Shown piece after piece: positions 32,466-32,796 of a stretch of 50,877 nucleotides of DNA (position 1 is the first letter of the stretch; each line of letters starts with the position of its first letter). The notes under the pieces are model-generated. The model ran no database searches. It was not told the origin of the DNA and saw nothing but the letters and a program-made list of their open reading frames with translations. The position numbers and the translations under genes were made by a program. The DNA is from an uncultured Clostridia bacterium (GTDB lineage Bacteria > Bacillota > Clostridia > TANB77 > CAG-508), in NCBI GenBank assembly GCA_934162625.1, contig CAKPJM010000002.1, positions 1 through 50,877 of the forward strand, given 5' to 3'.

Positions 32466-32796
32466 ATAAATTGTAATTTGTATGAACGATTCTAGGGACT
32501 GTCCCTCTTTTGTCTAATGACAAAAGGGGACTGTCCTGAATCGTAAATGTAATCTATTGCAAATTGTAGGTGAGATTTTAATCACCCGCCTTCAAAGAAA
32601 TTACTCTAATAATGATTTGCTTTGGGCAGACACAGGGCCTGCCCCTACATATATAGCAATTTCTACAATGTCTTCGGTTGCCGAGGGCGGTAACCCTCTA
32701 CAGCATTTGCGACAAATTTGTTTTTTGGCGTATGCAATACGCCCCTACGAATCCAACTTCCAATCTCACACTTCAATAAAACAAATTACAATTTGT
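32466..32796 (+). repeat. long copy (B) of the modular GC-hairpin intergenic element
   Basis: Bounded by near-palindromes ATAAATTGTAATTTGT (32466..32481) and ACAAATTACAATTTGT (32781..32796). The interior holds a long imperfect hairpin (32487..32545), then about 50-nt units that each carry a GC-rich hairpin ending in CCC(C/T)CTAC. One of these is GGCGTAT-GCA-ATACGCC (32727..32743). Confidence 0.7.

What the first reader, a model, noticed from the sequence alone, without database searches (positions are those of the whole stretch)
32781..32796. 16-bp palindrome ACAAATT-NN-AATTTGT positioned 24-66 bp upstream of four unrelated start codons
The element termini are themselves 7-2-7 palindromes. 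There are four instances. (1) ACAAATTACAATTTGT at 32781..32796, 24 nt before deoC. (2) ACAAATTGTAATTTGT at 50800..50815, 66 nt before ylmC/ymxH. (3) ACAAATTCCAATTTCT at 25750..25765, 51 nt before htrA. (4) ATAAATTGTAATTTGT at 32466..32481, 58 nt before the M14 peptidase gene. In each case the palindrome faces the adjacent gene start. This geometry is typical of a dimeric repressor or activator operator, or alternatively of terminal inverted repeats of a mobile element. It does not match the CcpA cre, CodY, Rex, Fur/PerR or Spo0A boxes as I remember them.
Basis: seen in the sequence. Interest (0 to 1): 0.5.

Follow-up and report, generated by a model that had tools for sequence, protein, structure and literature searches.

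The report
Inverted ends of a miniature mobile repeat
The 16-base "palindrome" is not a regulator's binding site but the conserved inverted end of a small non-coding repeat element, built around GC-rich hairpins, that is scattered between genes in a group of low-GC human-gut bacteria.

Summary
The four sites exist (one is off by one base). They are far more than chance: 4 hits at one mismatch or fewer, against 0.2 expected. They are not independent operators. Each one is a terminus of the same repeat family. Its architecture is: terminus AYAAATTG(T/G)AATTTGT, a GT-rich tail, GTAG-tagged GC-rich REP hairpin(s), a CA-rich tail, then terminus ACAAATT(A/C)CAATTTNT.

Window 32466-32796 is one complete 331-bp copy. 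The htrA site is the right end of a truncated copy. The site at 50799 is the end of a copy that runs off the window.

Close relatives with the same genes lack the motif upstream of htrA, the M14 peptidase gene and deoC. Strains with an identical YlmC keep both termini but carry different interiors. About 60 independent insertion sites were found in gut metagenomes. Their flanks are unrelated and they show no target-site duplication. About 18% abut the end of a gene rather than its start.

Position 15 of the 16-mer is not conserved, so the dyad symmetry is incidental. No transposase was linked to the element. Mobilisation in trans by a Y1/HUH enzyme is inferred only.

Verdict: a new variant of the MITE / REPIN / BIME kind, of modest interest.

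The parts
32466..32796 (.). Complete 331-bp composite copy of the repeat element, in the M14-peptidase/deoC intergenic region
   Evidence: It is colinear with copies at two unrelated loci (L241 4278-4551, L265 201-535). Homology starts and stops at the termini. As single-stranded DNA the two termini pair with each other, z = -6.8. Relatives L132-L134 have only 131 bp between the two genes.
32466..32481 (.). Its reverse complement, ACAAATTACAATTTAT, is the commonest form of the family's end
32486..32544 (.). Long hairpin made of two inverted GGGACTGTCC(C) units. The motif is close to GGGGWSAS of the repeats associated with TIRYT, a subclass of Y1 transposases flanked by terminal inverted repeats
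   Evidence: The same module sits in the L241, L155 and L159 copies. The GGGGWSAS consensus comes from PMC3733652.
32566..32587 (+). GTAG-tagged REP hairpin (GTAG-GTGAGATTTTAATCACCC). It is a diverged copy of the GGGCGATTAAAATCGCCC subfamily
   Evidence: Sequence. Aligned to L241 and L265. The subfamily is seen.
32624..32648 (+). REP hairpin GGGCAGACACAGGGCCTGCCC followed by CTAC
   Evidence: The same REP occurs in L131, L140, L173 and L236.
32676..32701 (+). REP hairpin GGTTGCCGAGGGCGGTAACC followed by CTCTAC
   Evidence: It is related to the GGGTCGCCGAGGACGGCGACCCCTAC subfamily.
32727..32748 (+). REP hairpin GGCGTATGCAATACGCC followed by CCTAC (called 'REP-D' here)
   Evidence: The identical 22-mer occurs in more than 120 loci from more than 12 phyla.
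32749..32780 (+). CA-rich subterminal tail
   Evidence: Homologous tails precede the terminus in 33 of 39 tail-anchored copies.
32781..32796 (.).
25667..25765 (+). Truncated copy upstream of htrA.
   Evidence: Direct repeat D3. About 70 nt are extra relative to L123, L127 and L132.
50799..50877 (.).
   Evidence: In L137-L145 the same ylmC-proximal terminus is present. In L137-L140 its partner ATAAATTGTAATTTGT is also present, with a strain-specific interior between the two. The interior module is shared with L186 6383-6675.

Best explanation
The 16-mer is the terminal inverted repeat of a family of small non-coding repeat elements, 45 to about 380 bp long. The family is found in a lineage of low-GC, spore-forming human-gut bacteria.

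The archetype is about 120 nt. It reads: terminus AYAAATTG(T/G)AATTTGT, a GT-rich tail, GTAG, a GC-rich REP hairpin, CTAC, a CA-rich tail, terminus ACAAATT(A/C)CAATTTNT. As a single strand it folds into one long hairpin, with the two termini paired at its base and the REP at its tip. Larger copies, such as window 32466-32796, are mosaics that hold several REP types.

Shown: the unit from terminus to terminus is what is copied to new intergenic sites.

Inferred: the element is non-autonomous and moves as single-stranded DNA. An enzyme supplied in trans would move it, most likely a Y1/HUH transposase of the RAYT or TIRYT kind. This fits the GTAG-tagged hairpins and the lack of target-site duplication.

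The closeness to start codons is a by-product of insertion into short intergenic regions. At deoC the element would then be transcribed as part of the 5' leader.
For: 1. Two of the four sites are ends of the same 90-nt repeat. The pair at 32466 and 32781 are inverted copies, including the asymmetric centre.
2. Relatives with 93-94% identical DeoC and the same gene order have no motif, at up to 2 mismatches to the full 16-mer, in about 20 kb of syntenic DNA. They lack the block upstream of htrA. Their M14-deoC spacers are 131 bp or otherwise different.
3. Upstream of ylmC, strains with an identical YlmC keep the gene-proximal terminus. In L137-L140 both termini and both outer flanks are kept, but four different interiors lie between them.
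4. A metagenome scan gave about 80 family members. They fall into five or more REP subfamilies with different tails, all ending in the same 14-mer. Sixty of them have unique, unrelated flanks.
5. Complete copies are bounded by the inverted termini. Their lengths run from 45 to about 380 nt.
6. The window's 331-bp composite recurs colinearly at two other loci, and homology ends exactly at the termini.
7. Of 99 unique palindrome sites, 68 have a tagged REP within 110 nt, against 5.4% of random positions. Most of the remainder carry family tails or a partner terminus.
8. End-to-end hairpin folds are strongly favoured: z = -9.35 for the 123-nt archetype and z = -6.8 for the window copy.
9. Short-read contigs of the same strain break inside the element.
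10. The flanking dinucleotides are not direct repeats.
Against: - No transposase was tied to the termini. The window has no Y1 gene.
- The Y1 (TIRYT-like) gene of relatives sits in its own unit of about 950 nt, with different 28-nt inverted repeats.
- Distant left/right terminus pairs enclose ordinary genes.
- No clean empty site was recovered, so the exact element boundary and the absence of a duplication rest on flank comparison only.
- The terminus lies 45-55 nt from the REP hairpin. That is farther than the cleavage sites of characterised IS200/IS605 or REP enzymes (established knowledge), so direct Y1 action at the terminus is uncertain.
- Movement itself was not observed. Interior differences between strains could come from recombination among copies.
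Confidence: 0.85

Rival explanations
1. The two inverted 16-mers, with a short spacer, form a small dispersed hairpin scaffold such as the 45-nt copy in L245. REP hairpins of several families then insert into its loop again and again. On this view the 16-mer is a landing pad, a 'REP trap', rather than part of what the REP machinery moves.
For: - Minimal copies hold only the two termini plus 13 or about 33 nt: L245 10846-10887 and L177 2312-2373.
- Identical flanks and termini carry four different interiors at the ylmC locus.
- Orthologous copies differ by indels of whole REP units.
- Unrelated REP subfamilies and tails share the same 14-mer.
Against: - The tails are specific to each REP subfamily and always lie between the REP and the terminus, in a fixed orientation. 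This fits better if tail and terminus travel with the REP.
- The whole 331-bp composite recurs as a unit.
- The scaffold would itself still be a dispersed repeat, so this is a refinement of the main explanation and not an alternative to the element reading.
Confidence: 0.1
2. The palindrome is the operator of a dimeric transcription factor that co-regulates deoC, htrA, ylmC and the M14 peptidase. In a variant of this reading, the operator is spread by the element.
For: - The motif has 7-2-7 symmetry.
- The four sites lie 23-64 nt upstream of start codons.
- About 40 of 60 independent copies face a start codon within 200 nt, and 12 of them lie within 25 nt.
Against: - The motif is absent from the orthologous promoters in close relatives.
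- L136 has the same ylmC and the same proximal promoter, but the terminus is degenerate.
- Position 15, which mirrors the invariant C2, is A15, G11, T6 and C1. Only 7 of 49 ends are perfect palindromes.
- About 11 of 60 copies abut the stop codon of a convergent gene.
- The genes next to the copies are functionally unrelated.
- At deoC the site lies downstream of the only good promoter, the extended -10 TGATATAAT at 32451-32459, with the whole element in between.
Confidence: 0.03
3. The inverted 16-mers are recombination sites of a site-specific invertase. On this view they flank an invertible segment (an inverton) that switches the downstream genes on and off.
For: - Inverted repeats flank a segment immediately upstream of genes in a gut bacterium.
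- The 2-bp centre is asymmetric and inverted between the two ends: GT on the left and AC on the right.
Against: - Across 11 and 7 orthologous copies from different samples, the orientation never differs.
- Left and right centres often do not match, for example GG with AC or GT with CC. That would block serine-recombinase exchange (established knowledge).
- The 7-bp half-sites are much shorter than known hix/gix or tyrosine-recombinase sites.
- Promoter-like matches inside the segment are no more frequent than in shuffled sequence.
- No recombinase gene lies nearby in the window.
- Assemblies report only the majority orientation, so rare inversion is not excluded.
Confidence: 0.02

Closest known systems
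REPINs, and BIMEs (bacterial interspersed mosaic elements) of E. coli and Pseudomonas. Both are clusters of REP hairpins mobilised by RAYT / TnpA-REP enzymes
   Same: - GC-rich extragenic hairpins tagged by GTAG on the 5' side.
- Inverted doublets and mosaic clusters.
- A variable number of REP units between strains.
- No target duplication.
- Intergenic location, often at gene boundaries.
   Different: - Here the REP or REPs sit in the middle of a longer unit. That unit has subfamily-specific 25-40 nt tails and a shared AT-rich 14-16 nt terminal inverted repeat, 45-55 nt away from the hairpin.
- The host is a low-GC Firmicute. GTAG REPs were catalogued in Proteobacteria, Cyanobacteria, Chloroflexi and the PVC group (PMC3733652).
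- No REP-flanked RAYT gene was found.
Long-hairpin bacterial MITEs: Correia/NEMIS (Neisseria), RUP and BOX (S. pneumoniae), ERIC, EFAR (enterococci)
   Same: - Non-coding elements of 50-400 bp with terminal inverted repeats.
- They fold end to end.
- They insert next to genes and are co-transcribed.
- Some are modular, with variable internal units, as BOX is.
   Different: - Those families usually make target duplications (for example TA for Correia) and derive from DDE insertion sequences. Here no duplication and no parent IS were found.
- The core here is a GTAG-tagged REP.
TIRtrons and the TIR repeat families associated with TIRYT (Di Nocera 2013; subclass 2.1 of Quentin 2018)
   Same: - Relatives carry a 226-aa Y1_Tnp gene bounded by 28-nt inverted repeats containing GGGGACGG. 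This nearly matches the consensus GGGGWSAS.
- GGGAC(A/T)GTCCC hairpins of similar sequence sit inside the cassettes.
   Different: - The TIRtron's inverted repeats are not the ACAAATT...AATTTGT termini.
- The unit that carries the gene lacks those termini.

Membership tests
Dimeric transcription-factor operator / regulon | Site conserved upstream of orthologous genes in related genomes | tested here: not met
   No match, at up to 2 mismatches to the full 16-mer, in the syntenic loci L123-L128 and L132-L135. The htrA and deoC upstream regions of relatives lack it.
Dimeric transcription-factor operator / regulon | Both half-sites conserved symmetrically | tested here: not met
   Tail-anchored ends: position 2 is C in 33 of 33, but its mirror, position 15, is A15/G11/T6/C1. 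Only 7 of 49 ends have GT at positions 15-16.
Dimeric transcription-factor operator / regulon | Sites occur independently of repeated DNA, in promoters of functionally linked genes | tested here: not met
   All four window sites and nearly all of 99 unique sites are element ends. The neighbouring genes are unrelated, and about 18% of ends abut the 3' end of a gene.
[quoted passage not shown] | Small, non-coding, with terminal inverted repeats | tested here: met
   Copies are 45 to about 380 nt, bounded by AYAAATTG(T/G)AATTTGT and ACAAATT(A/C)CAATTTNT. No ORF with a Pfam family lies inside, and there is no Rfam hit.
[quoted passage not shown] | Many copies at unrelated genomic sites, with presence/absence differences between strains | tested here: met
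   There are 60 unique flanks. The same composite occurs at 3 loci. It is absent from relatives at the htrA locus, and the M14-deoC spacer differs between them.
[quoted passage not shown] | Target-site duplication flanking the element | tested here: not met
   The flanking dinucleotides and longer flanks are not direct repeats, for example AA/GC, TT/AC and AT/GC. No clean empty site was available to confirm this.
[quoted passage not shown] | Parent insertion sequence with the same inverted repeats | tested here: inconclusive
   None was found in 868 kb of related contigs. A complete genome was not available.
REP / REPIN - RAYT system | GC-rich imperfect palindrome with a 5' GTAG tag | tested here: met
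   Window 32566-32587, 32624-32648, 32676-32701, 32727-32748 and 25689-25710. Many more are seen.
REP / REPIN - RAYT system | REPs in inverted doublets or clusters | tested here: met
   Doublets and mosaics in L140, L147, L159, L178, L203 and L236.
REP / REPIN - RAYT system | A RAYT gene flanked by the same REPs in the same genome (a REPtron) | tested here: inconclusive
   There is no Y1 gene in the window. The only Y1 gene seen in relatives is flanked by different repeats.
Inverton (invertase-driven switch) | Both orientations of the segment between the inverted repeats occur | tested here: not met
   18 orthologous copies from different samples all have the same orientation. Read-level data were not available.
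TIRtron (TIRYT gene plus its inverted repeats) | The motif is the inverted repeat bounding a Y1 gene | tested here: not met
   The Y1 units in L124 and L266-L280 are bounded by TGCCAAAGGGGACGGGGAATTTTGGCA, not by the 16-mer.

The most novel reading that the evidence does not exclude
The AT-rich 14-16 nt termini define a previously undescribed composite mobile unit in gut Clostridia. It would be either a long-hairpin carrier whose ends are the recognition or resolution sites of a Y1/HUH enzyme or another single-strand enzyme, or a dedicated 'REP trap'. In either case it packages GTAG-tagged REP hairpins. One of these hairpins is identical over 22 nt in more than a dozen bacterial phyla. That identity would point to inter-phylum spread of a REP/transposase system with a new carrier architecture.
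Probability: 0.2. Interest if true: 0.6.

Novelty: new variant of a known kind. Interest (0 to 1): 0.33.

Why it matters
- For annotation: these sites should not be scored as a regulon or used for motif discovery. They are repeat ends that also break short-read assemblies. Contigs of the same strain stop inside them.
- For mobile-DNA biology: the family extends GTAG-tagged REP-type repeats to low-GC gut Firmicutes. Its architecture is unusual: a shared AT-rich terminus, a subfamily-specific tail and a REP core.
- Copies frequently sit between promoter and ribosome-binding site. They probably become 5' leaders and could alter mRNA stability or translation of the downstream gene. That is testable.

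Tried and rejected
- **Rfam.** Scans at gathering threshold and at permissive E-value over 32380-32840 gave no RNA family for the element.
- **Promoter and terminator scan.** Promoter-like matches were no more frequent than in shuffles. The TACAAT inside the terminus has no -35 or TG extension, and it is TCCAAT in about half of the copies.
- **A cross-phylum link between the REP 22-mer and the palindrome.** The only enrichment was one Ignavibacteria array (L025). There ACAAATWATTTGT is simply the centre of symmetry between two inverted REPs. This is unrelated to the termini.
- **Search for an autonomous element.** tblastn with the relatives' Y1 protein against the window and all loci found nothing in the window. 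Left/right terminus pairs 0.9-4 kb apart enclose a surface protein and a RarA-like ATPase, not transposases.
- **The Y1/TIRYT gene of relatives as the mobilising enzyme.** Its unit does not carry the termini, so the link is unproven.
- **Clean empty sites.** The htrA and M14-deoC comparisons show replacement or other cassettes rather than a precise insertion. The exact boundary and the target sequence therefore stay unresolved.
- **Literature string searches.** No relevant paper was found for the terminus or for the REP 22-mer.
- **Organism name.** Cluster look-up gave no names. The contigs come from human-gut metagenomes, with GC of 24-31%.
- **Xer/dif-module and serine-invertase site analogies.** I considered these from my own knowledge and rejected them. 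The half-sites are too short, and the centres are often mismatched.

Full report
**Observation**

The window has about 27% G+C. All four quoted 16-mers are present.
- 32781-32796: an exact palindrome, with 23 nt to the deoC ATG at 32820.
- 50799-50814: exact. There are 64 nt to the start of the minus-strand PRC-barrel/ylmC-like ORF 50501-50734.
- 25750-25765: one mismatch, 50 nt to the htrA ATG.
- 32466-32481: one mismatch, 57 nt to the minus-strand M14 peptidase start at 32408.

With one mismatch or fewer there are 4 matches against 0.20 expected. None of 100 shuffles reached 4. The motif is real and non-random.

**The sites are not independent**

The repeat finder shows that 25667-25756 and 32705-32794 are two copies of one 90-nt repeat at 77% identity. 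Its core is the hairpin GGCGTATGCAATACGCC followed by CCTAC. Read on the other strand, this is GTAG plus a GC-rich palindrome, which is the signature of REP sequences (PMC3733652; PMC6006769).

The M14-deoC spacer carries three hairpins followed by CTAC and one preceded by GTAG. It also carries a long GGGACTGTCCC double hairpin.

The left site has the centre GT and the right site AC. They are therefore inverted copies of one asymmetric 16-mer. As single-stranded DNA, 32460-32800 folds with the two termini paired (z = -6.8).

**Comparison with relatives**

DeoC homologues led to syntenic contigs from human-gut metagenomes.
- Loci L123-L128 (DeoC 93% identical) share the gene order NRPS-htrA-M14-deoC-folate transporter. 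They contain no 16-mer at up to 2 mismatches and no CCCCTAC hairpins.
- Their htrA leader lacks about 70 nt that the window has. The terminus aligns to unrelated sequence.
- L132-L134 (DeoC 94%) have only 131 bp between M14 and deoC. They keep the same extended -10 promoter TGATATAAT and a single small hairpin.
- Strains with 98% identical DeoC (L129-L131) carry the element, but their contigs break inside it. So do contigs of the window's own strain, L001 and L122.

The motif is therefore not a conserved promoter element.

**The ylmC locus**

An exact-protein look-up of YlmC gave ten contigs. In L137-L140 the outer flanks are identical, as are both 16-mers: ATAAATTGTAATTTGT on the distal side and ACAAATTACAATTTGT 64 nt before the ATG. 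The DNA between them is different in each strain:
- one REP with its tail (L139);
- an inverted REP doublet (L140);
- a GGACAGTCCC doublet (L138);
- other sequence (L137).

L141-L145 match the window, and those contigs break. L136 has the same ylmC and proximal promoter, but a degenerate terminus and a different upstream region. This matches the architecture of window 32466-32796.

**The family at large**

About 80 of the hits are genuine members, on contigs of 24-31% G+C.
- At least five REP subfamilies are present. Each has its own 25-40 nt tail, and all end in the same 14-mer.
- Sixty ends have unique, unrelated flanks.
- Complete copies read: terminus, GT-rich tail, GTAG-REP(s) ... REP(s)-CTAC, CA-rich tail, terminus. 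Lengths run from 45 nt (two termini plus 13 nt, in L245) through about 120 nt archetypes (L202, L177, L261) to about 380 nt mosaics.
- The 123-nt archetype folds into one end-to-end hairpin (z = -9.35). The 16-mer alone is not significantly structured.
- The window's 331-bp composite is colinear with copies at two other loci. Homology begins and ends at the termini.
- Flanking bases are not direct repeats, so there is no target-site duplication.
- Of 99 unique palindrome sites in 868 kb, 68 have a tagged REP within 110 nt, against 5.4% of random positions. Nearly all the others carry family tails or a partner terminus.

**Why it is not an operator**

With ends anchored on the tails rather than on the motif, positions 1-7 and 9-14 are essentially invariant. 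Position 8 is A or C. Position 15 is A15/G11/T6/C1, while its mirror, position 2, is always C. The perfect palindrome is a minority form, 7 of 49 ends.

About 40 of 60 ends face a start codon with a ribosome-binding site within 200 nt. The distances range from 11 to 198 nt, and 12 are within 25 nt. About 11 of 60 ends abut the stop codon of a convergent gene. That spread is what an intergenic repeat would give.

At deoC the only good promoter lies upstream of the whole element. The element is therefore probably part of the 5' leader (inference).

**Other rivals**

Inversion switch:
- Eighteen orthologous copies from different samples never differ in orientation. They differ only by indels of whole REP units.
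- Left and right centres are often mismatched.

REP trap, in which the termini form a scaffold into which REPs insert: not excluded. It is treated as a refinement of the main explanation rather than an alternative.

**Mechanism**

Shown: the terminus-to-terminus unit is a dispersed, strain-variable, non-coding repeat with inverted ends and REP cores.

Inferred: it is non-autonomous and is moved in trans as a single-strand hairpin, most likely by a Y1/HUH transposase. The grounds are the GTAG-tagged hairpins, the absence of duplications, and the presence of Y1 genes in the lineage.

That link is unproven, for three reasons.
- The window has no Y1 gene.
- The 226-aa Y1_Tnp of relatives sits in a unit of about 950 nt. 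It is bounded by TGCCAAAGGGGACGGGGAATTTTGGCA, close to the GGGGWSAS repeats of TIRYT genes, and it does not carry the termini.
- No transposase lies between distant terminus pairs.

**Comparison with what is known, and novelty**

The closest described kinds are REPINs/BIMEs and long-hairpin MITEs (Correia, RUP/BOX, ERIC, EFAR).

It differs from REPINs/BIMEs in three ways:
- the shared AT-rich terminus, far from the hairpin;
- the subfamily-specific tails;
- the Firmicute host.

It differs from classical MITEs in three ways:
- no duplication;
- no parent IS;
- a REP core.

No open-access paper contains the terminus or the REP string, and Rfam has nothing. I rate it a new variant of a known kind, of modest interest. 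The original operator idea is rejected.

Noticed in passing
The hosts include Cyanobacteria, Chloroflexota, Bacteroidota, Pasteurellaceae, Methylococcales, Atribacterota, Ignavibacteria, Nitrospinota, Oscillospiraceae and others. It often appears as inverted pairs 60-70 nt apart, and the flanks are unrelated. Identity across so many phyla is unexpected for a repeat thought to be mainly inherited vertically.
   Followed up: partly
L124 18340-19210; L266-L280: Relatives carry a 226-aa Y1_Tnp (PF01797) gene with a C-terminal extension. It sits in a unit of about 950 nt bounded by 28-nt inverted repeats TGCCAAAGGGGACGGGGAATTTTGGCA, a TIRtron-like arrangement. The unit is inserted at different loci, for example after rplL and between cbiQ and an ECF sigma gene. 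In L269 and L272 the ends are partly duplicated in tandem.
   Followed up: partly
L146-L265 (for example L241, L199, L255, L220, L197, L165, L159): About a fifth of independent element ends stop only 11-25 nt before a start codon, just upstream of the Shine-Dalgarno sequence. This suggests that the element is tolerated, or selected, as part of 5' leaders. Enrichment over a proper null model was not tested.
   Followed up: partly
window 16225-16279, 47450-47493, 50425-50471: A second short repeat, GAGATTTCC...TTTTATTCGGAAACTCAAATCGGCGAGAACAAGG, has three copies, one of them inverted. It forms a hairpin (TTGAGATTTCC / GGAAACTCAA). In the one case checked it lies just past the 3' end of a gene, the ylmC-like ORF 50501-50734. 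It may be a terminator-like repeat or another small element.
   Followed up: no
window 34002-34101: A THF riboswitch (Rfam RF01831, 77.5 bits) lies upstream of a 607-aa ORF. Its counterpart in relatives is a fused ECF-transporter S component and folylpolyglutamate synthase (Mur ligase) protein.
   Followed up: no
window 18536-25738 (minus strand): A 2400-aa NRPS. In relatives it has Condensation, AMP-binding and PP-binding domains twice, plus a terminal NAD-binding reductase domain. It sits directly upstream of the htrA copy of the element. In L123 the gene is split into two ORFs.
   Followed up: no
window 49595-50370: A sigma-factor gene next to ylmC is read as two or three overlapping ORFs (49595-49834, 49746-49922, 49945-50370). 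Relatives also show a 141-aa region-3/4 ORF and a separate ORF of 64 or 78 aa. This could be a frameshift or an interrupted gene.
   Followed up: no
window 46253-46325 and 10353-10471: Near-perfect long inverted repeats containing GGACGGAC/GTCCGTCC: 35-nt arms with a 3-nt loop, and 28-nt arms 63 nt apart. They look like terminators, or another hairpin repeat family related to the GGGAC-type units.
   Followed up: no
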